Shown: positions 5,397 through 21,042 of the stretch, piece by piece
How the letters are laid out: each line of letters begins with the position of its first letter
How positions within the stretch are numbered: position 1 is the first letter of the stretch
Source: Ferruginibacter sp.
Lineage (GTDB): Bacteria; Bacteroidota; Bacteroidia; Chitinophagales; Chitinophagaceae
Reading direction: 5' to 3'
DNA: 64,000 bases
Assembly (NCBI GenBank): GCA_035438265.1
Contig: DAORIB010000002.1
Coordinates: 3,895 to 67,894, forward strand
The notes under the pieces: generated by a model
What the model saw: only the letters and a program-made list of their open reading frames with translations
The model's database searches: none
What the model was told of the DNA's origin: nothing
Program-made: the position numbers and the translations under genes

Positions 5397-6065
5397 ATGA
5401 CCTGGAAACATTTTTTCACTTCTTCCATCGGTAAGAAACTGGTAATGGGCCTGACGGGGCTTTTTTTAATATCTTTCCTGGTGATCCACTGCACCATCAA
5501 TTCCATGATCTTTTTCAACGACGGGGGAGAGATGTTCAACATCTATGCTCATTTTATGAGCCACAATTACATCGTCCGGGTGATTGAAATCGGTTTATTT
5601 GCCGGGCTGCTGGTTCACATCATCCAGGGGTTGATGCTGATGAAACAGAACAGCGCCGCCCGTCCCGTGAAATACGAGGTAAATGCTGTAAGCGAAAACA
5701 GCAAATGGTACAGCCGCAGCATGGGATTACTGGGAACCCTATTACTGTTTTTCCTCATCCTGCATATTTCCAAATTTTTTGTCAATACCAAGATAGCCCT
5801 GTACAGCGGCGATGAACCGCACAATACCTACGAAGAAATGAAAGAATACTTTCAGCAGTTGTGGGTGGTAGTCGCTTATATAGCCGGTGTTGTTTCTTTG
5901 TTCTGGCATTTGCTGCACGGGTTTCCCAGCGCCTTTCAAACACTGGGCATTAACCACAAACGCTATACCCCCATCATCCAAATGGCCGGCACGGCATTTT
6001 CCGTTATTGTGTGCATCCTGTTTGCGCTGATGCCCCTTGCCTTTTATCTTGGCTGGATCAATTAA
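5397..6065 (+). CDS. sdhC: Succinate dehydrogenase/fumarate reductase cytochrome b subunit
   Basis: [16 protein letters not shown], five hydrophobic helices, haem-ligand His residues (VIHC, LVHI, ILHI, WHLLHGF); first gene of sdh operon. Confidence 0.93.
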
Positions 6066-6094
6066 CATTACCTAATCAACCAATCAACTATACC

Positions 6095-8071
6095 ATGGCT
6101 TTAGATTCTAAGATACCTCACGGCGAAATGGATAAAAAATGGACCGATTACAAAGGTCATGTGAAACTGGTTAATCCTGCCAACAAGCGTAAACTGGAAG
6201 TGATCGTTGTTGGAACCGGGCTTGCCGGCGCTTCGGCTGCCGCCTCCCTCGGCGAACTGGGATATAAAGTAAAAGCATTCTGTTTCCAGGACAGTCCACG
6301 CCGGGCGCACAGCATCGCCGCACAGGGTGGCATCAACGCTGCTAAAAATTACCAGAACGACGGGGATTCTGTTTTCCGCCTGTTTTATGATACGGTGAAG
6401 GGTGGCGACTACCGGGCAAGAGAAGCCAATGTTCACCGCCTGGCCGAAGTTAGTGCTGCCATCATTGATCAATGTGTGGCCCAGGGTGTTCCCTTCGCCA
6501 GGGAATATGGTGGATTATTAAGTAACCGCAGTTTTGGAGGTACACAGGTACAACGCACTTTTTATGCAGCCGGGCAAACCGGTCAGCAGTTACTGCTGGG
6601 TGCATACAGTGCATTGGAACGCCAGGTTGCCCTGGGCAATGTTACTCAGTATAGCCGACATGAAATGCTCGACGTGGTAATGATTGATGGAAAAGCACGG
6701 GGCATCATTGCCCGGGACCTTATCTCCGGTAAACTGGAACGGCATTTTGGACATGCGGTATTATTATGCACCGGCGGATACGGAAACGTTTTCTATTTAA
6801 GTACCAATGCCATGGGCAGCAATGTAACTGCAGCCTGGAAAGCGCATAAAAAGGGTGCCTTCTTCGGCAATCCCTGTTTTACACAGATACACCCCACCTG
6901 TATTCCCGTGAGCGGTGATCACCAGAGTAAGCTGACACTGATGAGTGAGAGTTTGCGTAACGACGGACGTATATGGGTACCCAAACAAAAAGATGATAAA
7001 CGCAAGGCAGTAGACATACCGGAAGAGGAAAGAGATTATTACCTCGAAAGAAGATACCCTGCCTTTGGTAACCTGGTGCCCCGGGACGTGGCATCAAGGG
7101 CCGCCAAAGAAAGATGTGATGAAGGGTATGGCGTGGGCACAACAAAAATGGCTGTGTACCTCGACTTTGCCGATGCCATCAAACGCTATGGAAAAATCGA
7201 AGCCGGTAAACAGGGCAATCACAATCCTGATGATGCCAGCATCCTCAGCCTGGGCAAAGCAGTTGTGGAGGAAAAATACGGTAACCTTTTCGAGATGTAT
7301 GAAAAGATCACCGGTGAAAATCCGTACGAAACGCCGATGCGCATTTACCCGGCGGTGCATTATACCATGGGCGGACTGTGGGTAGATTATGAATTACAAA
7401 CAACCGTTCCGGGATTATATGCACTGGGAGAAGCCAACTTCAGCGACCACGGCGCCAACAGGCTGGGGGCCAGTGCGCTCATGCAGGGATTGGCCGATGG
7501 ATACTTCGTTATTCCGTACACATTGGGCAATTACCTGGCAGATGATATCCGCACGGCATCGATCCCCACGTCTCATCCGGCATTTGCAGAAACAGAGAAA
7601 GCCGTAAGCGACCGCATCCATCAACTGATGAATATTAAAGGAAGCCAGAGCGTGGAAAGTTTTCACAAACGCCTCGGTAAGATCATGTGGGATAAATGCG
7701 GTATGGCACGCAATGCTAAAGGATTACAGGAAGCGATCGGGGAGATCCAGCAACTGAAAAAAGAATTCTGGAGCGATGTACGGATACCCGGCGAAATAAA
7801 TGAAATGAACCCGGAACTGGACAAAGCCGGCCGGGTAGCTGATTTTATTGAACTGGGTGAGCTGATGTGCAAAGATGCCCTGAACCGCAATGAAAGCTGC
7901 GGCGGGCACTTCCGTGAAGAGTCACAAACCGAAGACGGTGAAGCAAAACGCGACGATGCCAATTTCAGTTATGTGGCAGCCTGGGAATACAAGGGTGAAA
8001 GCAACTGGGAGATGAATAAGGAGCCGTTGAATTTTGAAATTGTGAAGCCAACGCAGCGGAGTTACAAGTAA
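6095..8071 (+). CDS. sdhA: Succinate dehydrogenase/fumarate reductase flavoprotein subunit
   Basis: [11 protein letters not shown] motif, [38 protein letters not shown]; true start MALDSK at 6095. Confidence 0.97.
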
Positions 8072-8183
8072 TAATTAATTTAGTAATTAAGGATTAATAG
8101 TTAAGTTTTTTTCGGAACAGGGAGTATGCAAGTCAGTAACGGCATTTTGTATTGAGGGAATTATTCATTATTTATTCTTAATT

Positions 8184-9068
8184 ATGAAAGTAAGTGGATT
8201 CACGTTTGTAAAGAATGCCGTGAAATATGGCTACCCGGTTGTTGAATCCATTACATCGCTTTTGCCGATTGTGGATGAAATGGTGGTTTGCCTGGGGGAT
8301 TCGGAAGACGAAACAAATAAGCTCATTGAATCAATAGGCTCTGACAAAATAAAGATCATTCATTCCGTATGGGACAACAGCCTGCGGGAAGGAGGTAAAG
8401 TGCTGGCGGTGGAAACCAACAAAGCCATGGATGCAACCGCCGCCGGAAGTGACTGGCTCTTTTACATACAGGCCGATGAAGTACTGCACGAACAGTATCA
8501 CCCGGTGATACTGGATGCGATGCGGAAGTATAAAGATGATAAACGGGTGGAAGGGTTGTTATTCCACTACCATCATTTTTACGGCAGTTACAGATTAATC
8601 GGCGATGGCAGAAAATGGTACTCGAAAGAGATCCGGGTGATCCGCAACAATAAAAAGATCCGCAGTTATCTCGATGCGCAGGGATTCAGGCTGGATGACC
8701 GGAAGCTGAATGTAAAACTGATCGATGCCTATATCTATCATTACGGCTGGGTACGCAACCCGGTAGCGATGAAAAAAAAGTATACCGACTTCAGCAAACT
8801 GTGGAATGAAGACCCTGTTCATAATGCCTGGGTGGCTGAAGAGGAGAAAAAGGGGCAGCAGTTCGATTATTCCAGCATCGACTCCGTAACTCTCTTCAAT
8901 GGTACCCACCCGGCAGTAATGAAAGAGCTGGTAAGTAAGGAAGACTGGAACTTTGAGATTGACGTAAAGAAAAAAAACTTCAAAAATACAAAGCACAGGC
9001 TCCTGTATTTTATCTGGAAGAATTTTGGATGGAGGCCATTTGAGTACAGTAATTATAAAAAGATTTAA
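8184..9068 (+). CDS. GT-A fold (GT2-like) glycosyltransferase inserted between sdhA and sdhB
   Basis: MKVSGFTFVKNA, DSEDET, WLFYIQADEVLHE (DXD-like), IYHYGWVR. Confidence 0.8.
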   Translation: MKVSGFTFVKNAVKYGYPVVESITSLLPIVDEMVVCLGDSEDETNKLIESIGSDKIKIIHSVWDNSLREGGKVLAVETNKAMDATAAGSDWLFYIQADEVLHEQYHPVILDAMRKYKDDKRVEGLLFHYHHFYGSYRLIGDGRKWYSKEIRVIRNNKKIRSYLDAQGFRLDDRKLNVKLIDAYIYHYGWVRNPVAMKKKYTDFSKLWNEDPVHNAWVAEEEKKGQQFDYSSIDSVTLFNGTHPAVMKELVSKEDWNFEIDVKKKNFKNTKHRLLYFIWKNFGWRPFEYSNYKKI

Positions 9069-9123
9069 CTGATTAAATCATCAGTAACAACCAAGCAATT
9101 CAGCAGTTAAGCAATTTATCTAT

Positions 9124-9885
9124 ATGGAACACTACACAATGAACCTCACACTGAAAGTGTGGAAACAAAAGAACAGCACAGCAACCGGTAACTTTGAAAC
9201 CTACCAGGTAAAAGACATCTCCTCCGAAATGTCGTTCCTCGAATTATTCGATGTGCTGAATGAACAGCTGATCCGTGAAGGGAAAGACCCGATCGCTTTT
9301 GACCACGACTGCCGCGAAGGAATCTGCGGCGCCTGCAGCATGTACATCAACGGGCGGGCGCATGGTCCCTGGGCTAAGAATACCACCTGCCAGCTGCACA
9401 TGCGTGCATTCAAGGACGGGGATACCATTGTAGTGGAGCCATGGAGAGCCGGGGCCTTCCCCGTGATCAAAGACCTGATGGTTGACCGTACTGCTTTCGA
9501 CCGCATCATCCAGGCCGGTGGCTATATTTCGGTAAATACCGGCAACGCGGTTGACGCCAACGCCATTCCCATTGATAAAAAAGATGCGGATGATGCATTC
9601 ATGGCGGCGGCCTGCATCGGTTGCGGCGCCTGTGTAGCCACCTGTAAGAACAGCAGTGCCATGCTGTTTGTAAGTGCCAAAGTTTCGCAACTGGCTTTAT
9701 TGCCCCAGGGCGAACCGGAAAGGGAATCGAGGGTGCTGAACATGGTGGCGCAAATGGACAAAGAAGGTTTCGGCAACTGCACCAACACCTATGCCTGCGA
9801 AGCGGAATGTCCCAAAGGAATTTCCGTGGCAAATATTGCACGTATGAACAGGGAATACCTGCGGGCCGGACTCAATGCCGACTAA
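9124..9885 (+). CDS. sdhB: Succinate dehydrogenase/fumarate reductase iron-sulfur subunit
   Basis: [34 protein letters not shown]. Confidence 0.97.
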
Positions 9886-9890
9886 GCCGT

Positions 9891-10817
9891 TTATTTCTTT
9901 CTGAACTTTTTATTCTTGATGGTGAACACCCTCGACAGGTTGAAGCCAAAGTGTATATCTCCTTTAAAGAAGTCGCCCGTGGTTTCGGTAATGAAGGTCT
10001 TCTCCGTCATGCCGGTTGAGTTGGTGAAATGAAGCTGGAATACGTGACCACCTGTTTCGATATCAAACCCTACCGCCAGCGAATTTTTGGTGCCGGGTAA
10101 CCGGTAATCCTGTCCCTCTACCAGCGAGATAGGCAATACGTGATAATACTCCACATTGAAGCTTAGCCGTTTCGACAACTTGATTCTTCCTCCGGCGCCC
10201 AGTGCAAAAATATCATTGGGGTCGGTTGCTGCCTGTGCCAGGTTATAATGCACGTACGACGGCATCAGCTGCAGGGAAAGACCTTCGCTGAATTTACGGG
10301 CGATGATCAGCTGGTGTGCATAGGTGATGCGTGAGGTATAATAGTTCTGTCGTTTGGGGTCTTCCCATTTCAGCGTATTGAGCATAACAGAAGAAGTGGC
10401 GCTGATGGAAATGGGTGAAGAACCACGCCCGCCTTTTGACTGGCGCAGGATCTTGAATTTATAATACGCATCGTATTGTTTCTGGTAGGTGCTGCGGCCG
10501 ATACCCACCATCAGCCGGTTGGATATGCCATAATCGAGCCCCATCCGCATGGTGGCCTGGTCGAGCCCGAAGAACTCATACGAGCCACGGTTCACCATGC
10601 CAAAGCGGTGAGAAATCTTAACGTCCATCACACCGGCTGCCACGTTCTCGATCGATTGACCATTGATCAGCCGGGTGGTTTTAAACGTAGCCGTAGCATA
10701 ATCTTTTTTTCGTTCTTTTTTACTTTCATTTTCCAGCATTTTCATCAGGTCGTCCTGTGCACGCAGCAAGGGCGAAAGAAGATTCAGCAGGAGAAACAAT
10801 ACGAGGTATTTTTTCAT
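9891..10817 (-). CDS. DUF5777-like outer-membrane beta-barrel protein
   Basis: Signal peptide, ATFKTTRLINGQS, ISHRFG, alternating beta-strands, DIETGGHVFQLHFTN, GFNLSRVF. Confidence 0.75.
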   Translation of the reverse strand: MKKYLVLFLLLNLLSPLLRAQDDLMKMLENESKKERKKDYATATFKTTRLINGQSIENVAAGVMDVKISHRFGMVNRGSYEFFGLDQATMRMGLDYGISNRLMVGIGRSTYQKQYDAYYKFKILRQSKGGRGSSPISISATSSVMLNTLKWEDPKRQNYYTSRITYAHQLIIARKFSEGLSLQLMPSYVHYNLAQAATDPNDIFALGAGGRIKLSKRLSFNVEYYHVLPISLVEGQDYRLPGTKNSLAVGFDIETGGHVFQLHFTNSTGMTEKTFITETTGDFFKGDIHFGFNLSRVFTIKNKKFRKK

Positions 10818-10835: not shown

Positions 10836-11390
10836 TTAACTTTTGGGTTCGTACTTACAATCTACAGTTACATCAATGTCCTCCGATATCTTGTCAGCCA
10901 CCAGCGAGGGAATGCTCACATTGTAATCTTTCAGCTTGATGGAAAATCTGGACGTGGCATTTACTTTACCCGATTTGATGATAACAGAACCGGTGTAGCT
11001 CACTTGCCGGCTCACGCCATGCAGGTTCAGTTCACCTTCCACGGTAACCGGGTAGGCGCCGTCTTTGGAAAAATTCACCGAACTGATGTTCACGATCTTT
11101 CCCTTGAAAGTGGATTTGGGGTATTTGTTGCTCTCCACGTAGTTTTCATTGAAATGCTCCTCCATGAGTGCTCTTTCAAAATGAAAACTCTTGAGCAGGA
11201 TGGCAAACACCAGGTCGCCGGTTTGTGTGTTGAGCACACTGGATACTTCATTGTTATCCGCTTCCACTTTTTCGGGTGATTTGGCCCGCGAATAAAACGA
11301 TACTTTTCCCGATTTGGTCATCTGGATGTTTTGGGCGGCGGCACCCGTTGCCAGGCCGGCAAGCAGTACGCCGAAGAACAGTTTTTTCAT
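10836..11390 (-). CDS. YceI-family (polyisoprenoid-binding lipocalin-like) protein
   Basis: Start MKKLFF at 11390; FERALMEEHFNENYVES, GELNLHGV, FSIKLKDYNVSIP. Confidence 0.85.
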   Translation of the reverse strand: MKKLFFGVLLAGLATGAAAQNIQMTKSGKVSFYSRAKSPEKVEADNNEVSSVLNTQTGDLVFAILLKSFHFERALMEEHFNENYVESNKYPKSTFKGKIVNISSVNFSKDGAYPVTVEGELNLHGVSRQVSYTGSVIIKSGKVNATSRFSIKLKDYNVSIPSLVADKISEDIDVTVDCKYEPKS

Positions 11391-11400
11391 AGTTGTGTGT

Positions 11401-11775
11401 TTAATTATTTGGAGTTCCTGAATCGATCCATCGCTGAATACCCGCCAGGGTACAGGAGGGTAGTTTGGCTGCCCCTTTCGGCATGCTGCCATTTACTCCG
11501 GTAGAGCCCATCAGCCTGCCGTTAACAGCCTGCGTCTTCACACCGTTGTAGGTATCCAGTATCACCCCCGATGAGGCGGAGGCCGTGTTGTGGCACCCAC
11601 TGCTGTTGCAGTGTGTATTCATCAACGGCAGTACATCCGTTGAAAACTTCATCACCGTGGTGGTATCGCAGGGTACCTTTCCATCGGGATATAATAGTTC
11701 TGCCTTGTCGTAATAACAGCTTTCAAAGCTGAGTAAAACAAGGAAGCTGGCCAGGATTGTTACAATGATTTTCAT
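11401..11775 (-). CDS. Lipoprotein mono-haem c-type cytochrome with CX4CH motif
   Basis: Lipobox-like LSFES-C; CNSSGCH at 11590-11610; distal SMPKG Met; aligns with the C-terminal domain of the neighbouring di-haem protein. Confidence 0.7.
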   Translation of the reverse strand: MKIIVTILASFLVLLSFESCYYDKAELLYPDGKVPCDTTTVMKFSTDVLPLMNTHCNSSGCHNTASASSGVILDTYNGVKTQAVNGRLMGSTGVNGSMPKGAAKLPSCTLAGIQRWIDSGTPNN

Positions 11776-11802
11776 GATCGGTATTTAATGCGTGTTGTTT
11801 GA

Positions 11803-12507
11803 TTAATTATTGGGCGAACCTGCCGAGATCCATTTCTGCACCTGCGTGATGCGGCAGGCGGATAATTTATTTCCTCCCTGCGGCATGGCAATAAAGCCTG
11901 CATCATGCCGGATGCTGCCCAGCAGTTTGCCATTGAGTGCAATGCTCCGTACGCCCGCATACGTACTCAGGTCGATGCCGCCGCCTGCTGATGCAGGGTT
12001 ATGGCATCCCTTGCAGTAACTGTTCATCAATGGTGAAACAGCACCCGAGTAAGTGAACAGGGTGGTGTCGCAATCATTGCATGCATTGTTTTTGGCTCCC
12101 TGCAGGATCCATTTATAAATGAGGTCTTTTTGCGCCTGGGTAAAGGCAGCAGCCGGGGGAGGTGGCATCCGGTCTCCGCCCGTTTGGTTAAGCACTTTAT
12201 AGAGTTTGCTGTTTGCCGGGTCTCCCGGACGAACACCACCCGTAGCCATCACGTTTCCATACGTGGTAAGATTTACACCTTCCTTATGGGTAATGGCATC
12301 ATGACAACCACTCATGGCGCAACTGGAATTAAGCAGCGGCAATACGCTGTTCTGGAAGTAAACAGTATCCGCACTGCAGGTTTGTTCGCCGCCTGTAACA
12401 GGGGTTTCAATCACCTGTATGGGGATGTCGTGTTTACACGACATCATGATCAGCAGGAAAAGAAGAATTCCAATGATCTCCAGTAATCTTGAATTTACTG
12501 TATGCAT
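11803..12507 (-). CDS. Lipoprotein di-haem c-type cytochrome (CX4CH + CXXCH)
   Basis: Start MHTVNS at 12507; LIMMS-C lipobox; CAMSGCH (12301-12321) with RMPP, and CKGCH (12001-12015) with AMPQ. Confidence 0.8.
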   Translation of the reverse strand: MHTVNSRLLEIIGILLFLLIMMSCKHDIPIQVIETPVTGGEQTCSADTVYFQNSVLPLLNSSCAMSGCHDAITHKEGVNLTTYGNVMATGGVRPGDPANSKLYKVLNQTGGDRMPPPPAAAFTQAQKDLIYKWILQGAKNNACNDCDTTLFTYSGAVSPLMNSYCKGCHNPASAGGGIDLSTYAGVRSIALNGKLLGSIRHDAGFIAMPQGGNKLSACRITQVQKWISAGSPNN

Positions 12508-12554
12508 GGTTTGTGCAGGGTTTTTAAAATGGTTCTTCAAAAAGTATTGATATT

Positions 12555-12980
12555 TTATTTTTCCTGGATCATGCATCGTACCAATATCACATCGGTAAGA
12601 TACCCGGTGCAGATTCCCTTTATGGAAACCTGGGTTTTTGGTTTGATCTCATGCTGAACGATACCCTCCATGGTACACCGTACAGTGCCCATCCCGGTGC
12701 CATCCAGGGAAACGACGGTTTTTCCTTCCTGGTTTTTTGATACATCGGTCACGTAGCCCGACACTTCCAGTACCTTGTCCAGGTAATCGCGGTTCGCATT
12801 TGCTTCATTGGCTTCGTAAGCAGCCACCAGGTGCATGGCGGCAATGCGTACCGGCCTGATGTGCTGAACATCCCGGTGGGGTTTGGTATACATGCGGTAT
12901 CCCACAAAACCTGCCGTGATCAATGTCAGCAGCAGCAAGCCCCCGGTGGCAATGAGTATTTTCTTTTTACTCCTGGTCAT
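12555..12980 (-). CDS. Membrane-anchored OB-fold protein (tRNA_anti-like)
   Basis: Start MTRSKKK at 12980, one TM helix, AYEANEANANRDYLDKVLEVSGYV, VSIKGICTGYL. Confidence 0.7.
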   Translation of the reverse strand: MTRSKKKILIATGGLLLLTLITAGFVGYRMYTKPHRDVQHIRPVRIAAMHLVAAYEANEANANRDYLDKVLEVSGYVTDVSKNQEGKTVVSLDGTGMGTVRCTMEGIVQHEIKPKTQVSIKGICTGYLTDVILVRCMIQEK

Positions 12981-13053
12981 ACAAACGGTTTTATTGTTAT
13001 AAAGATGGACCCGGGTTGTATCATGCATTCCTTCTGCCTCTTTCAACCTTTAT

Positions 13054-13104
13054 CTGAACATGCCGGACCTGGATATACTTTCGCAAACCAGGCCAGCATG
13101 TCAG
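13054..13104. other. Imperfect intergenic stem-loop inside the cytochrome operon
   Basis: CTGAACATGCCGGACCTGG-N15-CCAGGCCAGCATGTCAG. Confidence 0.45.
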
Positions 13105-13133
13105 TTTTCCTGATACGCACCCTGCCCGTGTTA

Positions 13134-14708
13134 TTAATCTGAATACCGGTGTCCTGCATTCACCCAGTTGGTGATGATGGCTTTTTCCGCTGCAGTTAAA
13201 AACGGTTGAGGACTCTTAGGCATCTTCACCCATCCCGGGGCATACAATACACTGGTGTTGTTGATCTGGCTCCATTTTGATACGATATTGCAATCTGAAT
13301 CAAAATTGTAACCGGCTGCACTGTTGCCGGATCCGATATGACATCCGCTGCCGTTGCAACGGGTGGATATTAAGTTCCGTACCTGGGCAAACAACGGACC
13401 GCTGGCGATCACACCCACCGTGGTTGTTTGTGTTTTGGTACAGCCATTGGCATCCTTTACACCCATCACATAATTGCCCGCATTAAGGTTGGCAAACACA
13501 TTACTTGCCTGGTAAGCGCCTCCATTGATGTTGTAGGTGAAACCGGTAGAGCCGCTGGCTGTAACGGTAATGCTTCCGTTGTTGGTGGGTGTAACACAAG
13601 GGGTGGTGTTTACTACCGCTGTTGTAATTACAATGTTCACATTGCTGCATGGACTGGTTGCAGTAAGTGTTACCTGTGTACTGCCCAAACAGCCGTTGGA
13701 GTTTTTGGCAGTAACGGTATAGGTGCCGGCTGCCAGGTTACTGAATGTACCGCTGGCCTGGAAAGCACCATTATTCAGGCTATAGGTAAACCCGGTGCCG
13801 CCGGTAGCTGATGCAGTGATGGATCCGTTGCTTTGACCCGTAGTTGGATTAACGGTGGTGGTTGTTACCGTAACAGTTACCCCGGCACAGGGATTGGTGG
13901 ATCCCAGTGCCACCGTTGCAACCCCGGTACATCCGTTGGAGTTCTTGGCTGTGATGGTATAGTTTCCGGCTGCCAGGTTGCTGAATGTACCGCTGGCCTG
14001 GAAAGCTCCGTTGTTCAAACTATATGTGAACCCGGTGCCCCCGGTGGCAGTAGCAGTAATAGAACCATTGCTTTGACCGGTGGTTGGCTGAACCACGGTG
14101 GTGGTGACCACTACGGTCACACCCGCACAGGGGTTATTTGTTCCAACAGTGATCTGGCCGGTACCAATACAACCCGCCGCACTCCTGGCTGCAACGACAT
14201 ATGTACCTGCTGCGAGGTTGTTGAAGGTGCCGCTGGCCTGGAATGGTCCGCCATTCAAGCTGTATGTAAACCCGGTACCGCCGGTAGCGGTGGCGGTAAT
14301 GGTCCCGTTCGATTGATTGGGCGACGCATCGGTTTTTGATAAGTTAACAGTGATGGTAACACCCTGGCAGGGATCATAAGAGTCCACCTGTATCACTACA
14401 GTGTCGGTGCAGCCAACAGAGTTTCGGCCCACTACATTGTACGTGCGGAAGGGTTCAAGCCCGGAGAAGAAACCTGTGTCCTGGTAAGCGCCGCCGTTCA
14501 GGCTGTATTGGAAACCTGACCCTCCTGTTGCTGAAGCGGTGATGGTACCATTGTTCTGGTTCAGCGTGGCGGGGGTTTGGGTTGCCGTAACCGAAAAACC
14601 AATGGCATCGCAGGATGGAGCAGGGATCTCATGCTTACAGGCAAACTGAACCAGGGTGATCAGCACCGCCATCAGCCCAACAATTCTGATTGTAAGATTT
14701 CTTTTCAT
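13134..14708 (-). CDS. Lipoprotein with five SprB-like repeats and C-terminal CX4CH cytochrome c domain
   Basis: VQFA-C lipobox; five ~80 aa repeats (NGxITAxATGGTGFTYSLNxG...NLAAGxY...GC); CNGSGCH at 13338-13358 with distal KMPKSP. Confidence 0.8.
   Translation of the reverse strand: MKRNLTIRIVGLMAVLITLVQFACKHEIPAPSCDAIGFSVTATQTPATLNQNNGTITASATGGSGFQYSLNGGAYQDTGFFSGLEPFRTYNVVGRNSVGCTDTVVIQVDSYDPCQGVTITVNLSKTDASPNQSNGTITATATGGTGFTYSLNGGPFQASGTFNNLAAGTYVVAARSAAGCIGTGQITVGTNNPCAGVTVVVTTTVVQPTTGQSNGSITATATGGTGFTYSLNNGAFQASGTFSNLAAGNYTITAKNSNGCTGVATVALGSTNPCAGVTVTVTTTTVNPTTGQSNGSITASATGGTGFTYSLNNGAFQASGTFSNLAAGTYTVTAKNSNGCLGSTQVTLTATSPCSNVNIVITTAVVNTTPCVTPTNNGSITVTASGSTGFTYNINGGAYQASNVFANLNAGNYVMGVKDANGCTKTQTTTVGVIASGPLFAQVRNLISTRCNGSGCHIGSGNSAAGYNFDSDCNIVSKWSQINNTSVLYAPGWVKMPKSPQPFLTAAEKAIITNWVNAGHRYSD
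13410..14612 (-). repeat. Coding tandem repeat, ~240 bp period, five units
   Basis: CTGAATGTACCGCTGGCCTGGAA at 13741 and 13981, variant at 14221; more diverged units near 13500 and 14480. Confidence 0.85.
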
Positions 14709-14797: not shown

Positions 14798-14858
14798 TTA
14801 AAGTAAAAATCAGGTAAAATCACGCTGAACCTGCAGGAACGGGTGCTGAACCTGCAGG
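14798..14858 (-). promoter_or_regulatory. Putative LytTR-activated promoter of the cytochrome operon
   Basis: Perfect 14-bp direct repeat GCTGAACCTGCAGG at 14824-14837 and 14845-14858 (21-bp period); -7-like TACTTTAA on the minus strand at 14805-14798. Confidence 0.7.
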
Positions 14859-14880: not shown

Positions 14881-15639
14881 CTATTCGGAAAGCCAGTTTT
14901 TGAAGTCGTGTGCCCGGTCAATGGCAACGATGGTATCGAGGGGAGTGGGAGGGGAAAGTTTTACATTGATCCGGGACCGGGTATGTGCTTTCATTTCGTC
15001 AATGGCGTGATGACCGATGATGAACTGGCGGTTAATGCGGAAGAAATTTTTCGGGTTCAGCATCTGCTCCACCTGGTCAAGATTAAAATCCATTGGGAAC
15101 CGTTTGCCTTCATTGGCACACAGAAAATTGGTCTTGTTCTCCGTATAGAAATAGGCAATGTCCGTAACCCGGATAGAACGGATGGTATCGCCAAGCCGGA
15201 TGATGAACCGGTCTTTGTACTGCTTACCCGCCTGCGGGATGTTCTGGAGTATTTGTGCATAGTTCACCGAAAACGAACCCGAACGCTGCAGCAGTTTGAG
15301 TTTTTCCACGGCCCGGCGTACATCATCTTCGTCAATGGGTTTCAGCAGATAATCCACACTGTTTACCTTAAATGCCTGCAGGGCGTAGCTTTCGTAGGCC
15401 GTGGTAAAAATAACCGGGCAGGTGATGGTTACCAGGCTGAACAACTGAAAGCTGTTCCCGTCGGCCAGCTGGATATCCATAAATACCAGGTCGGGCATGG
15501 GGTTCCGGTCGAACCAGGCAACTGCTTCTTCGATGCTTGAAACCGTGCCGGCTGATTCGTACCCGGGTATTACAATGGATACAATCTTCTGCAGCCGCTG
15601 CAATGCCTGTTCTTCATCTTCCAGGATCAGTATTTTCAT
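14881..15639 (-). CDS. LytTR-family response regulator
   Basis: ILEDE, DLVFMDIQL, FTTAY, DYLLKP; C-terminal FFRINRQFII LytTR domain. Confidence 0.95.
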   Translation of the reverse strand: MKILILEDEEQALQRLQKIVSIVIPGYESAGTVSSIEEAVAWFDRNPMPDLVFMDIQLADGNSFQLFSLVTITCPVIFTTAYESYALQAFKVNSVDYLLKPIDEDDVRRAVEKLKLLQRSGSFSVNYAQILQNIPQAGKQYKDRFIIRLGDTIRSIRVTDIAYFYTENKTNFLCANEGKRFPMDFNLDQVEQMLNPKNFFRINRQFIIGHHAIDEMKAHTRSRINVKLSPPTPLDTIVAIDRAHDFKNWLSE

Positions 15640-15640
15640 A

Positions 15641-18550
15641 TTAAGCTGAATAAAGTAAAGGAAGCCGTATCACAAATTCCGTTCTCGTTTCTTCAATCAC
15701 CACTTCCTTCGGTGTTAAAATTTTATAGCGGTTCTTTATGTTTTTCAATCCCACGCCCTCGCTTTCTTCTTTTTCAAATTTGGGATTGATGTTGTTGCTC
15801 ATCACAATCTGCCCGGGTTCGGTGCGGATGTGAATGTACAGCGGTTTTTCCTTGCTGATGATGTTGTGCTTAACGGCGTTTTCGGCCAGCAACTGCAGTA
15901 CCAGCGGCGGAATCAGTCCGGTACGCATCACGTTGTAATCCACATTCACCGTTACCTGCAGGGCACTGCCGTAGCGCTTACTCTGGATGAACAGGTACGA
16001 TTTCAGCAGTTCCAGTTCTTCCGCCAGTGTTATCAGTTCCTTCTGGCTGAAGGCCGTCATCTTCCGGTAAAACTGTGATAAATGTTTGATCAGCACCGAC
16101 GCTTCTTTGGGATTGTCTTCCACAATATTCATAAGCGCATTAAAACTGTTGAAGAGGAAATGAGGGTTTACCTGGTTCTTGAGCGCATCGTATTGCAGCT
16201 GGAATTTTTCCCGTTCTTCCTGTTCGGATCTGCGTACCTTTTTAATACGGCCGAGCAATACCAGGTATACCACAATGGCCGCAGCCAGCAGGCTTGCCAG
16301 GCGGAACCACCAGGTTGTCCAGAACGACCGCCGGATATAAAAAGAATAGGTTGCCACCGGCGATGCCTGGAAATTATTATTGACCGAAGCCCGTACTCTT
16401 ATCTCATAACTACCCGGCCGCAGCTGTGAAAAGTTGATCACCCGGTCGCCGGTTGTTTCCCAGTGCTTGCTGTATCCTTCCAGCCAGTACTGGAACTTTA
16501 TTTTTTCAGGCGCTTTGTAATACGCAGCAGACAGGGTGAAGCTGAAACTGTTCTGGTGGTAGTCAAATTCCTTTTGTGTGGCGGTATCAATTATTTCATT
16601 AAAGAGACGTACTTTTTCAATTACAGCTGCCGGTACAAAACCAAATGAAGATGAAGCGGTGTTCAGGCAAACGATGCCATTATTGGTACCAATCCAGATG
16701 CTGCCATCCCGGTTCCGGGTGATGGAGTTCAGGTTAGGTTGCTGTTCTTTAAATCCCGATTCGGTGCCAAAGTGCTGTACCACATTTTTTTTGGGATTGA
16801 ATACATCAATTCCTTTTTTATTGACAGCAATGATATTATTGAATTCATCGGCGGCGATGGACGTGATGGTGATGTCTGTTAACCCGTTCCGGGTATCATA
16901 GTGGGTGAATTTTACATCATCGTATTCAAAAAGTCCGTCGTTGTAGGTGCTCACCCAGATGTGCCCGTTGTGGTCTTCAGCGAGTGAATACGCCACTTTC
17001 GACGGGAAGAGGCGGTGTGCATAGAAATTCATGAATTGACCTTTATCGAGCATGGTTACACCGGCGCCATCCGTGGCAAACCAAACCCGGTTCTTTTGAT
17101 CGATGAGGATGGAATAGACGTAATCGCTGCCCAGTCCGTCCTTCTTGCTGTAATTTACATAGCGGATCTTTTCCTGCAGGTCGTAGTTGTTTTCTTCCAG
17201 GTAGAACCGGGCAACCCCATTCAGTGTGGAAATCCAAACCTGGTTGTCTTTACCCGCAATGTTCAGGATATTGCCATAGTAAGCAATGGGATTTTCGTCA
17301 ATGCGCCGCCATTTACCGGTATGTATATTCAGGCGGAAAAGTCCTTCACCCATGGTTCCGATCCACAGGCAGCCGAACCGGTCTTTGTATAAACTGGTGA
17401 TGTCGATATGATTTTCCGGAGCTGTGATATCGTATGCACGAAGCAGCCCATCACCCAGTGAATCCTGTGTGCTTCGGTACAGGCGCAGATCCGGGGTAAA
17501 CCATAATTGGTTTTCGTCATCGGCCAGTATGGAATGTACATTCGTAAGTTTGGTATTGCCGGCCGCATACCAGTAACGCAGGTAATCGGCAGTGAAGCTG
17601 AGCAGTTTTCCTTCGCTGGTTGCCCATATATTGCCTTCGTTATCGTACTGGATATCGGTAATGCGTTTTAAATTTCCATCGGGCGACAGTGAATGGGCTG
17701 TGAAGCTGGCCGATGCTTTATTATAAGCAATGATCCCTTTTTCCTCGGTGGCAATGAAGATGGTATTGGCTGCATCGATCATATCGTTCACCTGTCCAAA
17801 CTGCCACTGGCGCCGGAAGCTGGAGTCAATAATCCTGTTACCGGGAATTTCAAATACCAGGAAGCCCTTGGACTGCATGCCGATCAGCAGCCGGTCTTTC
17901 TGCCTGGCTGCCACCAGCGATGTAACGATATTATCCGGTAACCCGTTGCGGGCAGTAAAAAAACTGATGGTTCTTCTCCCGGTTTCAAAACGGATGAAAG
18001 ACAGGCCGCGGTCGGTACCTGCAATTAACTGGATGCCATCGTTGATGTAAAGGCAATTCACATTGTCATCACTCAGGCCATCTTTTTTGCTGATCTGCTG
18101 CAGCCGGTTATTCTCATAACAGAAAATGCCTTCGCCGGCGGTGCCGATCCATAGCCTGCCGCCGGTATCACCGCATAAGGCGCTGATGGCCACCTGCGGC
18201 GCTTTTTCCCGGAATGAAAGCCGGGTGACACGCTGGTCATTCAGCAACAGGAGGCTGCCGTTTTTACAACCCACCCAAATGGCTCCCCGGCTGTCTTCAT
18301 ACAGGGCCGTGATATGCAGGTTGCCATTCACCGGCAATGAAATCTTTTCCGGATCGATGCCATTATACTTGAACAGGCCTTCCGATGTGCCGATCCACAA
18401 AAACCCCAGGTGGTCCCTGAGCAGCACGGTTGATTTAATGGTGAGATTATCTTCCTCGATGTTGACCGTTTTTGAAAAAGGGTATTGTGCAGTTGTGGTA
18501 CCCGCAACCGAAAAGAGGAAAACAAGTAAGATTGCAGCTACCGGTTTCAT
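15641..18550 (-). CDS. LytS-type sensor histidine kinase with beta-propeller and Y_Y_Y periplasmic sensor
   Basis: Repeated LWIGT propeller blades, KFQYWLEGY Y_Y_Y domain, TM helix, ALKNQVNPHFLFNS, ENAVKHN, GVGLKNI. Confidence 0.92.
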   Translation of the reverse strand: MKPVAAILLVFLFSVAGTTTAQYPFSKTVNIEEDNLTIKSTVLLRDHLGFLWIGTSEGLFKYNGIDPEKISLPVNGNLHITALYEDSRGAIWVGCKNGSLLLLNDQRVTRLSFREKAPQVAISALCGDTGGRLWIGTAGEGIFCYENNRLQQISKKDGLSDDNVNCLYINDGIQLIAGTDRGLSFIRFETGRRTISFFTARNGLPDNIVTSLVAARQKDRLLIGMQSKGFLVFEIPGNRIIDSSFRRQWQFGQVNDMIDAANTIFIATEEKGIIAYNKASASFTAHSLSPDGNLKRITDIQYDNEGNIWATSEGKLLSFTADYLRYWYAAGNTKLTNVHSILADDENQLWFTPDLRLYRSTQDSLGDGLLRAYDITAPENHIDITSLYKDRFGCLWIGTMGEGLFRLNIHTGKWRRIDENPIAYYGNILNIAGKDNQVWISTLNGVARFYLEENNYDLQEKIRYVNYSKKDGLGSDYVYSILIDQKNRVWFATDGAGVTMLDKGQFMNFYAHRLFPSKVAYSLAEDHNGHIWVSTYNDGLFEYDDVKFTHYDTRNGLTDITITSIAADEFNNIIAVNKKGIDVFNPKKNVVQHFGTESGFKEQQPNLNSITRNRDGSIWIGTNNGIVCLNTASSSFGFVPAAVIEKVRLFNEIIDTATQKEFDYHQNSFSFTLSAAYYKAPEKIKFQYWLEGYSKHWETTGDRVINFSQLRPGSYEIRVRASVNNNFQASPVATYSFYIRRSFWTTWWFRLASLLAAAIVVYLVLLGRIKKVRRSEQEEREKFQLQYDALKNQVNPHFLFNSFNALMNIVEDNPKEASVLIKHLSQFYRKMTAFSQKELITLAEELELLKSYLFIQSKRYGSALQVTVNVDYNVMRTGLIPPLVLQLLAENAVKHNIISKEKPLYIHIRTEPGQIVMSNNINPKFEKEESEGVGLKNIKNRYKILTPKEVVIEETRTEFVIRLPLLYSA

Positions 18551-19233: not shown

Positions 19234-20955
19234 TTACCGGTGAATAATAATTTTCTCTGTTATCACTTCCTCTTTCAGTTTCAGCCTTGCCAGGTAAACG
19301 CCCGTTTGCAGGAAGGGAAGATCAACCGGTAGTCTGCCTGAAAGGTTGTTGAACATTTTTTGAAATACCCGTTTGCCATCGGCGGCGTACAAGGTGATCC
19401 ATTCCACCGGCCTGTCGGAATACACAAAGAGCTGGCTGCCGGTAACCGGCACCGGGTAAAGAAATACACTCCGGGCAAAGGTTTTGCTTACACTTACGGT
19501 ATCGGAGTAAGTAATTCTTCCCGACCGGTCGGTAATCTTCAAGCGGTAATACAGTTTTGTGAAAACGGGTATGTTGTGACGGAAACTGTAGTTGTTGGCA
19601 GGCGGGATATTAATGGCATTCACTCTTCCGGCAGCACTGAAACTGGTTCCGTCGGTGCCGAATTCCACTTCAAAAAATGAAACATTCTGTTCATTCAGCG
19701 TTCGCCATTTAATTTCATTGTAGCCGTTTAATGCCGTAGCGGAAAAATCAAGTACGGTTACCGGCAAAATAGTACTGGTGATCACTTTATATAATACACC
19801 GTTCCTCGACAAGGCATACAGGTCGCCATTTTCTGCTTCGCCAAAACCGGCGATATTGCCCGGCAATCCGGCCTGTATGCTGGCGTCAAAACCACCGGAG
19901 CCATTTTGTTTGATCACCCAGGTATTGCCCGACACATAATCGGAGCAGATATAATACCCATACATCGCGGCAAATTCGGCGCCCCGGTACACATGACCAC
20001 CGGTGATGGAAAAACCACCCGTGGTTCCATTATGGGGATATACAAAAACAGGGGCAATGTAACTGCTTTGCGCCTGGCATCCTGCAGTGTTGTAAGCAGC
20101 ATTGCCTTCGTAACAGCGCCATCCGTAATTAACACCGCCGGATGTGGCATAGGTGCGGAAATCAACTTCCTCCCAGGCGCCTTGTCCCACATCGGCAATC
20201 CACATATCATGGGTAAGCCGGTCGAAGCTCCAGCGCCAGGGATTGCGCAAGCCCATGGCAAAGATCTCGTCACGCACAGATGGATTGCTTACATAGGGGT
20301 TATCGGCAGGAATGGTATAGTATGGAGGGGTATTGAAATTATCCACGTTGATGCGGATCATTTTTCCCAGCAATGAATTTCCGTTTTGAGAATTATTATC
20401 CGGGTCGCCGCCACTGCCGCCATCGCCGGTGCCAAAATACAGGTGGCCATCATGACCAAAGAGTAATTTCCCGCCATTGTGATTAGAATAAGTGGGATGC
20501 GGAATGGTGAGTATCACCCTGCCGGTTGTTTCATCGGCAGCATTGGGGTTGCCGGCCAGGGTTTGAAAACGGGTGATCCGTATGTCGCCGGCGGTATTGG
20601 TATAATAAACAAAGAAGTACCGGTTGCTTGCAAAGCCCGGGTGAAAAGCCATGCTTAATAAGCCACGCTCACCGCCACCGGCAATGCTATCCGGTATGTC
20701 CAGGAAATTGCCGGCCTGCAGTACGCCATTGGATACAATCCGTACCCGGCCATCCTGCTGTACAATGAAAAGCCGGTTGGTTCCGTCGCCGGCATTCACT
20801 ATATCCACCGGCGCCGTTAGTCCCGATGATACTACCGGGTTAAATATCAGAACCGGGGTGGGTTGTGCTGAGGAACGGCCATAAAATAAAAATGGTACTG
20901 CTACAATCAGCAACAGTACCACCGTATTTCTTTTAGCTGTATACAATGTACTCAT
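19234..20955 (-). CDS. PQQ-dependent (GSDH/sGDH-like) sugar dehydrogenase with T9SS C-terminal domain, paralog 1
   Basis: GERGLLSMAFHP, NHNGGKLLFG.DGHLY, GLRNPWR, WIADVGQ; C-terminal LYPVP...TGVYLARL. Confidence 0.88.
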   Translation of the reverse strand: MSTLYTAKRNTVVLLLIVAVPFLFYGRSSAQPTPVLIFNPVVSSGLTAPVDIVNAGDGTNRLFIVQQDGRVRIVSNGVLQAGNFLDIPDSIAGGGERGLLSMAFHPGFASNRYFFVYYTNTAGDIRITRFQTLAGNPNAADETTGRVILTIPHPTYSNHNGGKLLFGHDGHLYFGTGDGGSGGDPDNNSQNGNSLLGKMIRINVDNFNTPPYYTIPADNPYVSNPSVRDEIFAMGLRNPWRWSFDRLTHDMWIADVGQGAWEEVDFRTYATSGGVNYGWRCYEGNAAYNTAGCQAQSSYIAPVFVYPHNGTTGGFSITGGHVYRGAEFAAMYGYYICSDYVSGNTWVIKQNGSGGFDASIQAGLPGNIAGFGEAENGDLYALSRNGVLYKVITSTILPVTVLDFSATALNGYNEIKWRTLNEQNVSFFEVEFGTDGTSFSAAGRVNAINIPPANNYSFRHNIPVFTKLYYRLKITDRSGRITYSDTVSVSKTFARSVFLYPVPVTGSQLFVYSDRPVEWITLYAADGKRVFQKMFNNLSGRLPVDLPFLQTGVYLARLKLKEEVITEKIIIHR

Positions 20956-21042
20956 GATACAGGGTTTATCGGATGATAGACTTAACGCCTCCTTAACACA
21001 AATACAGTGCCAGAGGACCTTTTCGCCAGAATGAATACCAAT

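What the first reader, a model, noticed from the sequence alone, without database searches (positions are those of the whole stretch)
13134..14708. Cytochrome on a stalk: lipid anchor, five SprB-like repeats, terminal haem domain
Seen: a lipobox, five ~80-aa Thr/Gly-rich repeats each bracketed by Cys (240-bp period, middle units nearly identical in DNA), then a CX4CH domain. Known: SprB repeats build extended adhesin filaments. Inference: a haem-free arm holds one redox centre far from the membrane, acting as a tethered shuttle or a redox sensor. Repeat number may vary by recombination.
Basis: partly seen in the sequence, partly recalled or inferred. Interest (0 to 1): 0.7.

Follow-up and report, generated by a model that had tools for sequence, protein, structure and literature searches.

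The report
Lipid-anchored cytochrome c on Ig-like stalk
An activated-sludge Chitinophagaceae bacterium encodes a lipoprotein in which five rigid-looking SprB (Ig-like) repeats carry a single, divergent c-type cytochrome domain at the far end; it belongs to an unstudied family whose stalk runs from 0 to 9 repeats and it probably serves as a reach-out electron-transfer arm of a conserved envelope redox gene set.

Summary
The ORF at 13134..14708 (-) encodes 524 aa in four parts. It starts with a signal peptide and a conserved lipidation Cys24. Five 80-aa SprB repeats follow (Pfam 69 bits). Each is a confidently predicted beta-sandwich with a conserved Cys pair. The stalk has no His and no haem motif. 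The last 91 aa form a three-helix domain with CNGSGCH (CX4CH) and an invariant Met-Pro.

That domain is a distant class-I cytochrome c. hhalign gives 94% to the neighbour's PSCyt1 domain. Orthologues with canonical CXXCH match Cytochrome_CBB3 end to end, but below the cut-off.

One detail is overstated: the two middle repeats are 82% identical in protein and 75-80% in DNA, not nearly identical.

Across homologues the stalk forms a ladder of 0-9 repeats, and the haem motif varies (CX2CH, CX4CH, rarer CX3/5/6CH). No repeat-number polymorphism was seen in three independent metagenome assemblies of this species.

The gene is part of a conserved core: stalk cytochrome, OB-fold anchor, small cytochrome lipoprotein, YceI and DUF5777 barrel. 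This core is often under a LytTR two-component pair.

Haem binding, localisation (surface or periplasm) and function remain inferred. I rate it a new architectural variant of tethered cytochromes, of moderate interest.

The parts
13134..14708 (-). Whole gene: 524-aa lipoprotein with SprB-repeat stalk and C-terminal cytochrome-c-like domain
   Evidence: ORF list. More than 1500 homologues with E<=1e-3, the closest at 88% identity.
14640..14708 (-). Signal peptide (aa 1-23)
   Evidence: Sequence MKRNLTIRIVGLMAVLITLVQFA. Predicted helix 2-23.
14637..14639 (-). Lipidation Cys24 (+1 of the mature lipoprotein)
   Evidence: Invariant in alignment A2. Preceded by a small residue in 105/105 orthologues scored.
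14613..14636 (-). Post-Cys tether KHEIPAPS, with the conserved C-x-H-E-[IL]-P motif
   Evidence: His +3 in 105/105 and Glu +4 in 95/105 orthologues. The same motif (CKHDIP) starts the neighbouring dihaem lipoprotein.
14370..14612 (-). SprB repeat 1 (aa 33-113), divergent first unit
   Evidence: Cys33/Cys100.
14130..14369 (-). SprB repeat 2 (aa 114-193)
   Evidence: Cys114/Cys180.
13890..14129 (-). SprB repeat 3 (aa 194-273)
   Evidence: 82% aa identity to repeat 4. Cys194/Cys260.
13650..13889 (-). SprB repeat 4 (aa 274-353)
   Evidence: Cys274/Cys340.
13410..13649 (-). SprB repeat 5 (aa 354-433), distinct last unit with an extra Cys371
   Evidence: Cys354, 371, 423.
13137..13409 (-). C-terminal three-helix cytochrome-c-like domain (aa 434-524)
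   Evidence: Helices 438-451, 474-487 and 506-517. BLASTP 2e-5 and hhalign 94% to the neighbour's PSCyt1 domain. CXXCH orthologues hit Cytochrome_CBB3 over positions 4-68/68 at 15-23 bits.
13338..13358 (-). Presumed haem-attachment motif CNGSGCH (CX4CH, aa 451-457)
   Evidence: C451, C456 and H457 are invariant. Spacing varies from CX2CH to CX6CH among orthologues.
13218..13223 (-). Met496-Pro497, presumed distal axial ligand
   Evidence: Invariant in A1 and A2. Aligns with the MP of the PSCyt1 domain.
14824..14858 (-). Direct repeat CCTGCAGGTTCAGC x2 with a 21-bp period, upstream of the gene; a candidate LytTR regulator site
   Evidence: Read from the sequence. Its function was not tested.
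12555..13046 (-). Context: membrane-anchored OB-fold protein (tRNA_anti-like)
   Evidence: Pfam 74.5 bits. Syntenic in 9 loci.
11803..12576 (-). Context: lipoprotein with two cytochrome c domains (CAMSGCH and CKGCH)
   Evidence: PSCyt1 40.5 bits and Cytochrome_CBB3 30.4 bits, both above the cut-offs.
11401..11775 (-). Context: small lipoprotein with CNSSGCH (LIC11213-like)
10836..11390 (-). Context: periplasmic YceI-like protein (likely start MKKLFF)
   Evidence: Pfam YceI 57.6 bits.
9891..10817 (-). Context: DUF5777 outer-membrane beta-barrel
   Evidence: Pfam 325 bits.
14881..18550 (-). Context: LytTR response regulator (14881-15639) and propeller/Y_Y_Y LytS-type histidine kinase (15641-18550)

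Best explanation
The gene encodes a lipid-anchored, single-haem c-type cytochrome. The anchor is probably in the outer membrane, the default for Bacteroidota lipoproteins. The haem domain sits at the tip of a haem-free rod of five disulfide-clamped Ig-like (SprB) domains. From typical Ig-domain dimensions the rod would be about 20 nm long.

The protein is the long-reach member of a conserved envelope redox gene set: an OB-fold inner-membrane anchor, one or two small cytochrome c lipoproteins, a YceI lipid/quinone binder and a DUF5777 outer-membrane barrel.

Proposed mechanism: the rod pivots on its short lipid tether. The terminal haem can then alternately meet the membrane-proximal small cytochromes and a partner tens of nanometres away. 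This is tethered diffusion, one electron at a time. I slightly favour the cell-surface side, where the partners would be secreted oxidoreductases such as the two T9SS-tagged PQQ dehydrogenases upstream, or an extracellular acceptor or donor.

Shown: the architecture, the conservation, the gene neighbourhood, remote homology to cytochrome c, and the variable stalk length. Inferred: covalent haem on CX4CH with His/Met ligation, stalk stiffness, topology, and the electron-transfer role. My confidence by step is: architecture 0.9, haem binding 0.75, electron-carrier role 0.6, surface side 0.5.
For: Architecture.

The stalk resembles extended Ig-like filaments (GhpA, cadherins, S-layers).

The stalk has 0 His and no CXnCH.

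C-terminal domain: C451, C456, H457, M496 and P497 are invariant. BLASTP gives 2e-5 and hhalign 94% to a domain that passes the Pfam PSCyt1 threshold. Eight of 21 orthologue domains hit Cytochrome_CBB3, over the full profile length. Relatives with 1-5 repeats mostly carry canonical CXXCH.

The genome encodes a CcsBA-type haem-attachment protein (868-aa frame, PF01578 at 82.6 bits).

Conserved core gene set, in 9 loci from different genera.

A multihaem cytochrome cluster lies next to the module in L005.

Stalk ladder of 0-9 repeats, including 2, 5, 7, 8 and 9 within the same module context. This argues against a fixed-gap ruler and for tunable reach.

Short metatranscriptome contigs, 100% identical, lie on the gene and operon.

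Precedent for tethered haem domains: PgcA (PMC11520253). Precedent for YceI plus c-type cytochrome domains in extracellular redox proteins: Cbp2D (PMC8981238).
Against: There is no experimental haem evidence.

The query domain itself has no Pfam hit, and its orthologues stay below the curated cut-off (15-23 against 27 bits).

The AF2 model of the domain is weak: pLDDT 69, and residues 453-475 are below 50 in the full model. Foldseek gave only NorC at E=8.

Topology is unknown. The post-Cys sequence KHEIP has one acidic residue, so it lacks the published K-(D/E)2 surface-export signal (PMC5080379). No route is known for exporting a folded holo-cytochrome lipoprotein in Bacteroidota.

The T9SS dehydrogenase neighbours are kept only in the closest relative checked (L018, 87%). 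They are absent from L019, L001, L005, L006, L007 and L016.

A single haem on a 20-nm rod cannot conduct. The model depends on mobility that was not tested.
Confidence: 0.45

Rival explanations
1. Same protein and same chemistry, but it faces the periplasm. It is anchored in the inner leaflet of the outer membrane (or in the inner membrane). The stalk carries the haem across the periplasm to a partner at the opposite membrane, for example one docked by the OB-fold inner-membrane protein. This would link respiratory-chain electrons to the small cytochromes, YceI and the barrel at the outer membrane.
For: Haem attachment and disulfide formation are periplasmic processes (established knowledge). 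No canonical lipoprotein export signal is present. The partners include a periplasmic YceI with an ordinary signal peptide and an inner-membrane-anchored OB-fold protein. A five-repeat rod of about 20 nm is comparable to a periplasmic width (inference).
Against: Stalk length in the same module context ranges over 2, 5, 7, 8 and 9 repeats, roughly 8 to 36 nm. That does not fit one fixed gap. SprB/GhpA-type Ig rods are otherwise known from cell-surface proteins. SusD homologues of this genome also lack the published export signal (CKKxLD), so its absence is not informative here.
Confidence: 0.3
2. The C-terminal domain is a haem-free, Cys-rich or metal-binding cap derived from a cytochrome c ancestor. 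The protein would then be simply a surface or envelope filament or adhesin.
For: The Cys-Cys spacing drifts (CX2, X4, X5, X6) within one orthologous group, which might reflect relaxed constraint. There is no Pfam hit and the structure prediction is weak. Extra conserved Cys residues (C473, plus a fourth in most orthologues) could form a disulfide.
Against: The CH dyad and the Met-Pro are invariant despite the drift in spacing. About a third of domain copies family-wide keep CX4CH and most of the rest keep CX2CH, which indicates selection on the motif. CX4CH haem sites are documented elsewhere in the literature (one search list; established for cytochromes c3). The neighbours are cytochromes with the same motif.
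Confidence: 0.12
3. The haem domain is a sensor for redox state, O2, NO or a similar ligand. Its state would be relayed to the adjacent propeller histidine kinase and LytTR regulator.
For: The gene lies directly downstream of the kinase/regulator pair here and in L007, L016 and L018. A LytTR-like direct repeat lies in its promoter region.
Against: The core gene set, including the stalk cytochrome, also occurs with an AraC regulator or with no adjacent regulator (L005, L006), and with only a LytTR fragment (L019). The kinase has its own large sensory propeller. His/Met hexacoordination is typical of electron carriers, not ligand sensors (established knowledge). The promoter repeat suggests the gene is a target of the regulator, not its input.
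Confidence: 0.08

Closest known systems
PgcA of Geobacter sulfurreducens ('hemes on a string'; PMC10570954, PMC11520253)
   Same: It is an extracellular cytochrome whose monohaem c-type domains are separated by nanometres and act by tethered diffusion rather than through a packed haem chain.
   Different: PgcA has three haems joined by flexible (PT)x linkers. Here there is one haem on a folded, disulfide-clamped rod of 5 (0-9 in the family) Ig-like domains. The lineage is different (aerobic Bacteroidota) and the haem motif is CX4CH.
SprB and other SprB-repeat / Ig-like surface filaments of Bacteroidota (e.g. GhpA of Aureispira, PDB 9flw, 9flp)
   Same: The repeat type is the same (Pfam SprB at 69 bits), and the best structural matches are GhpA fragments (E 1e-14 to 1e-10).
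   Different: Those are giant T9SS-secreted proteins with a C-terminal sorting domain. This protein is short, has an N-terminal lipid anchor, has no T9SS CTD, and ends in a cytochrome domain.
Planctomycete-type cytochrome c domain (PSCyt1, PF07635) / Cytochrome_CBB3 (PF13442) class-I cytochromes
   Same: It shares an N-terminal helix followed by C..CH, a distal Met-Pro and a C-terminal amphipathic helix ending W-[IV]-x-x-G. hhalign gives 94% to a bona fide PSCyt1 domain.
   Different: The query is below the curated thresholds. The motif is CX4CH, and CX2 to CX6 among orthologues. There are extra conserved Cys residues.
Cbp2D/Cbp2E of Cellvibrio japonicus (PMC8981238)
   Same: [quoted passage not shown]
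   Different: Cbp2D is a single secreted polypeptide with a CBM2 and is proposed to feed LPMOs. Here the parts are separate genes, there is no CBM, and the genome has no LPMO_10.
BcnA-LcoA (YceI-family lipocalin plus cytochrome b561; PMC9113575)
   Same: It is a characterised partnership of a YceI protein with a cytochrome in envelope redox protection.
   Different: LcoA is an integral-membrane b-type cytochrome. No stalk, barrel or c-type lipoproteins are involved.
Membrane-anchored cytochrome cy of Rhodobacter (own knowledge, not checked here)
   Same: It is a monohaem cytochrome c tethered to a membrane that shuttles electrons between complexes.
   Different: Its anchor is a transmembrane helix with a flexible linker of about 70 aa, not a lipid plus a folded multi-domain rod.

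Membership tests
SprB repeat proteins (PF13573) | Match to the Pfam SprB model above the gathering score, in tandem copies | tested here: met
   69.1 bits against a cut-off of 28, in 5 stretches.
SprB-type T9SS surface adhesins | C-terminal T9SS sorting domain (Por_Secre_tail or type B CTD) | tested here: not met
   No CTD hit in the query. The C-terminus is the cytochrome-like domain. Anchoring is instead by an N-terminal lipobox.
Bacterial lipoproteins | Signal peptide ending in a lipobox with an invariant Cys | tested here: met
   By inspection only. The n-region and h-region are followed by QFAC. Cys24 is invariant, and position -1 is S/A/N/G in 105 orthologues. No SignalP/LipoP run was possible.
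Class-I c-type cytochromes (Cytochrome_CBB3 PF13442 / PSCyt1 PF07635) | Score above the curated Pfam threshold | tested here: not met
   The query domain has no hit. CXXCH orthologues score 15-23 bits against a cut-off of 27, although over the full profile length.
Class-I c-type cytochromes (Cytochrome_CBB3 PF13442 / PSCyt1 PF07635) | Canonical CXXCH haem-attachment motif | tested here: not met
   The query has CNGSGCH (CX4CH). Some orthologues and most shorter relatives have CXXCH.
Class-I c-type cytochromes (Cytochrome_CBB3 PF13442 / PSCyt1 PF07635) | Distal Met ligand and a three-helix core | tested here: met
   M496-P497 is invariant and aligns with the MP of the PSCyt1 domain. AF2 gives three helices.
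Class-I c-type cytochromes (Cytochrome_CBB3 PF13442 / PSCyt1 PF07635) | Structural match to solved cytochromes c | tested here: inconclusive
   The only Foldseek match is NorC (3o0r_C), at E=8 and probability 0.03, on a model with pLDDT 69.
Class-I c-type cytochromes (Cytochrome_CBB3 PF13442 / PSCyt1 PF07635) | Covalently bound haem | not testable with these tools
   This needs protein chemistry. A CcsBA-type maturation gene is present in the genome.
Surface-exposed Bacteroidota lipoproteins | Lipoprotein export signal K-(D/E)2, Q-A-(D/E)2 or S-D-D-type after Cys+1 (PMC5080379) | tested here: inconclusive
   The query has C-K-H-E-I-P with one acidic residue. SusD homologues of the same genome have C-K-K-x-L-D and also lack the published signal.
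Bacteroidota cytochrome-YceI-DUF5777 envelope module | Co-directional neighbourhood of OB-fold anchor, small cytochrome lipoprotein, YceI and DUF5777 barrel | tested here: met
   Seen in the window and in L001, L005, L006, L007, L014-L019.
Cbp2D-like LPMO electron donors | CBM2 plus an LPMO partner in the genome | tested here: not met
   There is no CBM in the protein and no LPMO_10 in the 98%-complete genome.

The most novel reading that the evidence does not exclude
The stalk cytochrome is surface-exposed and acts as a length-tunable electron antenna. With the YceI quinone binder, the small cytochrome lipoproteins and the DUF5777 barrel, it would form a non-multihaem route for exchanging electrons between the respiratory chain of aerobic Bacteroidota and partners up to about 35 nm outside the outer membrane. 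Those partners could be T9SS-secreted oxidoreductases or insoluble substrates. As a corollary, the Bacteroidota CcsBA system would attach haem to CX2CH through CX6CH motifs interchangeably.
Probability: 0.15. Interest if true: 0.85.

Novelty: new variant of a known kind. Interest (0 to 1): 0.55.

Why it matters
Tethered cytochromes are known with flexible linkers (PgcA, cytochrome cy). A single haem on a folded Ig-domain rod whose length changes in 80-aa steps from 0 to 9 units would be a natural series of molecular rulers. It could be used to test how distance and tether mechanics limit inter-protein electron transfer.

The family also offers natural CX2/CX4/CX5/CX6CH variants of one domain. 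These form a ready-made test set for the substrate tolerance of system II haem attachment.

It also adds a distinctive, probably peripheral, component to an unstudied envelope gene set (cytochromes, YceI, DUF5777 barrel) that is widespread in Bacteroidota.

None of the homologues I saw is annotated as a cytochrome. They are named 'hypothetical', 'SprB repeat' or 'large repetitive protein'. No paper in the searchable library combines 'SprB repeat' with 'cytochrome'.

Tried and rejected
1. LPMO electron supply, by analogy with Cbp2D. There is no LPMO_10 in the genome, so I dropped it.

2. Direct sequence search of the C-terminal domain against PDB, both single sequence and profile. It returned only noise: sortases at E about 1, and a bc1 cytochrome c subunit at E 1.6.

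3. Foldseek on the domain model gave NorC at E=8, which is not usable.

4. Within-species repeat-number polymorphism. Contigs of 9.7-9.8 kb from three independent activated-sludge runs span the gene with 1-2 SNPs and no indel or joint. Contigs hide rare variants, so this is absence of evidence only.

5. Localisation from the lipoprotein export signal was inconclusive, because SusD homologues of this genome do not follow the published consensus either.

6. The T9SS PQQ dehydrogenases as obligatory partners. They are conserved only in the closest relative checked (L018) and absent from other loci.

7. The 1062-aa T9SS SprB-like neighbour in L007 as a second haem protein. It has no CXnCH motif.

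8. A dedicated second haem lyase for CX4CH. A 248-aa PF01578 frame exists, but I did not follow it up, so I draw no conclusion.

9. Plus-strand ORFs overlapping the gene (e.g. 13833-14339). I regard them as by-products of the repeat composition. They were not tested further.
Full report
**What is there**

The finding's coordinates match one ORF exactly: 13134..14708 on the minus strand, 524 aa.

- N-terminus. The sequence is MKRNLTIRIVGLMAVLITLVQFAC, a charged n-region and a hydrophobic core ending in Cys24. In a 33-sequence alignment of orthologues Cys24 is invariant. Across 105 orthologues the residue before it is S, A, N or G. I therefore accept the lipoprotein reading. The lipobox (Q-F-A-C) is atypical, however, and no signal-peptide predictor was available.
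- Post-Cys motif. The mature N-terminus carries a strikingly conserved C-x-H-E-[IL]-P motif: His +3 in 105/105 and Glu +4 in 95/105. The neighbouring dihaem lipoprotein has the same motif, CKHDIP.

**The repeats**

- Pfam SprB matches at 69.1 bits against a cut-off of 28, in five stretches. TRF reports a 240-bp period.
- I delimited five units of 80-81 aa: aa 33-113, 114-193, 194-273, 274-353 and 354-433. Each begins with Cys and has a second Cys about 67 residues on. These Cys residues are invariant in orthologues, which points to one disulfide per unit.
- Composition is Thr 19%, Gly 14%, Ala 10.5% and Asn 10%.
- The 401-aa stalk has no His, one Met, only 16 charged residues and no CXnCH motif. 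It is therefore truly haem-free.
Repeats 3 and 4 are 82% identical in protein and 75-80% in DNA. All other pairs are 37-60% identical in protein.

**Fold of the stalk**

- AlphaFold2 with a 33-sequence alignment gives each repeat as a six-strand beta-sandwich at pLDDT of about 90. The whole-chain pTM is only 0.35. That is the pattern expected for well-folded beads with undefined mutual orientation.
- The best Foldseek matches in the PDB are cryo-EM fragments of GhpA, the 'grappling hook' Ig-like filament of the Bacteroidota bacterium Aureispira (E 1.5e-14 to 4e-10). Next come CEA, cadherins, S-layer proteins and invasin, all extended tandem Ig-like arrays.
- Nothing suggests compaction. I could not read coordinates or PAE, so extension is inferred, not measured.

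**The C-terminal domain (aa 434-524)**

- It contains CNGSGCH (CX4CH, aa 451-457), an invariant Met496-Pro497 and three predicted helices.
- On its own it has no Pfam or PDB sequence hit.
- Homology to cytochrome c is nevertheless supported in three ways.
  1. BLASTP at 2e-5 and hhalign at 94% probability align it, motif for motif (C..CH, MP, C-terminal W-I-x-x-G helix), with the first domain of the neighbouring 257-aa protein. That protein passes the Pfam thresholds for PSCyt1 (40.5 against 22 bits) and Cytochrome_CBB3 (30.4 against 27).
  2. Eight of 21 orthologue domains hit Cytochrome_CBB3. The CXXCH-type orthologues match the full profile (positions 4-68 of 68) at 15-23 bits, below the cut-off of 27.
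  3. More distant relatives with 1-5 repeats mostly carry canonical CXXCH: CGPCH, CVSCH, CISCH, CVPCH.
- The domain-only model is weak (pLDDT 69), and its Foldseek search returned only NorC at E=8. The fold test is therefore inconclusive.
- The genome encodes a CcsBA-type maturation protein.
- I rate haem binding at about 0.75.

**Variation of the haem motif**

- Among the 120 best orthologues the Cys-Cys spacing is mostly four residues (CSGSGCH, CNGSGCH and similar). It is two in about ten, five in about a dozen and six in one. The CH dyad and the MP never change.
- Among the top 150 cluster representatives from a library of 1.84 billion proteins, domain copies have CX2CH 110 times, CX4CH 67, CX3CH 4 and CX6CH 4.
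- In this genome seven of nine related motifs have more than two intervening residues.
- CX4CH haem sites are documented in other systems (papers listed). A single domain family switching freely between spacings is unusual and worth a biochemical test.

**The family**

- The whole-protein search found more than 1500 homologues. All named ones are from Chitinophagaceae, Ferruginibacter or Bacteroidota MAGs. They are annotated 'hypothetical', 'SprB repeat' or 'large repetitive protein', never as a cytochrome.
- Repeat counts in the query plus 120 orthologues are 5 (18 proteins), 7 (91), 8 (1) and 9 (11).
- The domain profile finds 757 representatives at E<=1e-3. These fall on a ladder of 0, 1, 2, 3, 4, 5, 6 and 7 repeats, with median lengths 122, 196, 275, 360, 440, 523, 587 and 678 aa.
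- In one genome per genus of the family, 28 of 150 genera have the domain (29 of 151 genomes).
- Repeat number therefore does vary between lineages. Some 7- and 9-repeat proteins contain internal pairs at 90% identity or more, which are recent duplications.
- In this lineage the five-repeat state is old and stable. Each repeat has a closer positional counterpart in orthologues (89-95%) than inside the protein (48-82%). Contigs from three independent activated-sludge metagenomes span the gene with 1-2 substitutions and no indel.

**Context**

- Downstream on the same strand lie:
  - a membrane-anchored OB-fold protein (tRNA_anti-like);
  - a lipoprotein with two cytochrome c domains (CAMSGCH, CKGCH);
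  - a small lipoprotein with CNSSGCH;
  - a YceI protein;
  - a DUF5777 barrel.
- Upstream lie a LytTR regulator, a propeller/Y_Y_Y LytS-type kinase, a second YceI and two GSDH-type PQQ dehydrogenases with T9SS tails.
- The core (stalk cytochrome, OB-fold protein, small cytochrome, YceI, DUF5777) recurs in L001, L005, L006, L007, L014-L019, in varying order. It also occurs with 2-repeat stalks.
- The kinase/regulator pair is frequent but not universal. The dehydrogenases are kept only in the 87% relative L018.
- L005 has a multihaem (MtrC/F-like) cluster next door.
- Other stalk-cytochrome paralogues sit beside DUF1800/DUF1501 (with a T9SS-like tail) or beside ECF sigma/anti-sigma pairs.
- A 14-bp direct repeat with a 21-bp period lies upstream of the gene. 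It would suit a LytTR regulator.
- Earlier notes of this scan describe the same cytochrome-YceI-barrel gene set across Bacteroidota. I used them as leads and verified only the Chitinophagaceae loci listed above.
- Short metatranscriptome contigs, 100% identical, lie on the gene and the operon. This is weak evidence of expression.

**How it probably works**

- I commit to a lipid-anchored monohaem cytochrome c on a stiff Ig-like rod. The rod is about 4 nm per domain from general knowledge of Ig-like arrays, so about 20 nm here and up to about 36 nm in 9-repeat orthologues.
- It would exchange single electrons by tethered diffusion between the membrane-proximal cytochromes of the module and a distal partner.
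- The side of the outer membrane is open.
  - Surface exposure is favoured by the surface pedigree of SprB/GhpA-type rods. It is also favoured by the widely varying stalk length within one module context, and by T9SS-tagged redox neighbours.
  - A periplasmic location is favoured by the biogenesis of haem c and disulfides, and by the lack of a canonical export signal. SusD homologues of this genome lack that signal too.
- A sensor role and a haem-free adhesin role are less likely, for the reasons given under the rival explanations.

**Comparison and novelty**

- The closest functional analogue is PgcA, which has monohaem domains on flexible PT linkers and acts by tethered diffusion (PMC11520253).
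- The closest structural relatives of the arm are SprB/GhpA filaments.
- The haem domain is a sub-threshold relative of PSCyt1/Cytochrome_CBB3.
- Cbp2D (PMC8981238) and BcnA-LcoA (PMC9113575) are the characterised YceI-cytochrome partnerships. The genome has no LPMO.
- The protein fails membership of the T9SS SprB adhesins (no CTD) and of the curated cytochrome families (score and motif), while plausibly working like a class-I cytochrome.
- No paper in the library links 'SprB repeat' and 'cytochrome'.
- I class it as a new architectural variant of a known kind (tethered c-type cytochromes), with interest 0.55.

Noticed in passing
window 14824-14858 (-): CCTGCAGGTTCAGC occurs twice with a 21-bp period, between the LytTR regulator gene and the stalk-cytochrome gene. 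It is a plausible LytTR operator, which would make the cytochrome operon a target of the adjacent two-component system.
   Followed up: partly
window 14622-14639 (-) and 12423-12440 (-): The stalk cytochrome and the dihaem lipoprotein share a conserved C-x-H-[ED]-I-P motif immediately after the lipidation Cys. His +3 is invariant in 105 orthologues. It could be a sorting signal specific to this module or a functional, metal- or haem-proximal motif.
   Followed up: partly
homologues P0001-P0120; representatives P0121-P0269: Stalk length is quantised in 80-aa steps from 0 to 9 repeats. Among close orthologues odd numbers dominate (5: 18, 7: 91, 9: 11, 8: 1), which suggests gain or loss in two-repeat units.
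   Followed up: partly
window 11401-13400 and genome contigs C1:74909-75304, C4:29151-30344: Most PSCyt1-like domains of this genome use CX4CH or CX5CH (CNSSGCH, CAMSGCH, CNGSGCH, CGTSNCH, CGSANCH, CSINSNCH) rather than CXXCH. Among the top 150 cluster representatives, about a third of domain copies are CX4CH.
   Followed up: partly
L005:12147-21310: In a 7-repeat orthologue's genome, the module is followed by a cluster of multihaem cytochromes (MtrC/MtrF-like, Paired_CXXCH, Cytochrome_C554) interleaved with NHL/DUF5128 propeller proteins.
   Followed up: no
L008:5816-9738, L010:6602-10585: One-repeat stalk cytochromes lie next to a DUF1800/DUF1501 pair. The DUF1501 protein carries a T9SS-like tail (25 bits, just below the cut-off). 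This echoes the PSCyt-DUF1501 pairing of Planctomycetes.
   Followed up: partly
window 19234-22770 (-): Two tandem GSDH-type (PQQ) dehydrogenases with T9SS sorting domains lie upstream of the YceI-kinase-regulator genes. They are conserved in the 87% relative (L018) but not in more distant loci.
   Followed up: partly
window 5397-9885 (+); L018, L019: The module sits next to the succinate dehydrogenase genes in three related genomes. In the window and in L019 an extra gene separates sdhA from sdhB. The window's extra gene is GT2-like (Pfam Glyco_tranf_2_4, 24.8 bits, below the cut-off); the 295-aa one in L019 has no Pfam hit.
   Followed up: no
genome contig C65:8070-8528 (L004): A second, short (248-aa frame) PF01578 CcsA-like gene exists besides the 868-aa CcsBA-type gene. 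Whether it is a dedicated lyase for non-canonical motifs was not examined.
   Followed up: no
window 23043-26540 (+): A 1165-aa ORF has no Pfam match. It is conserved next to the dehydrogenases in L018.
   Followed up: no
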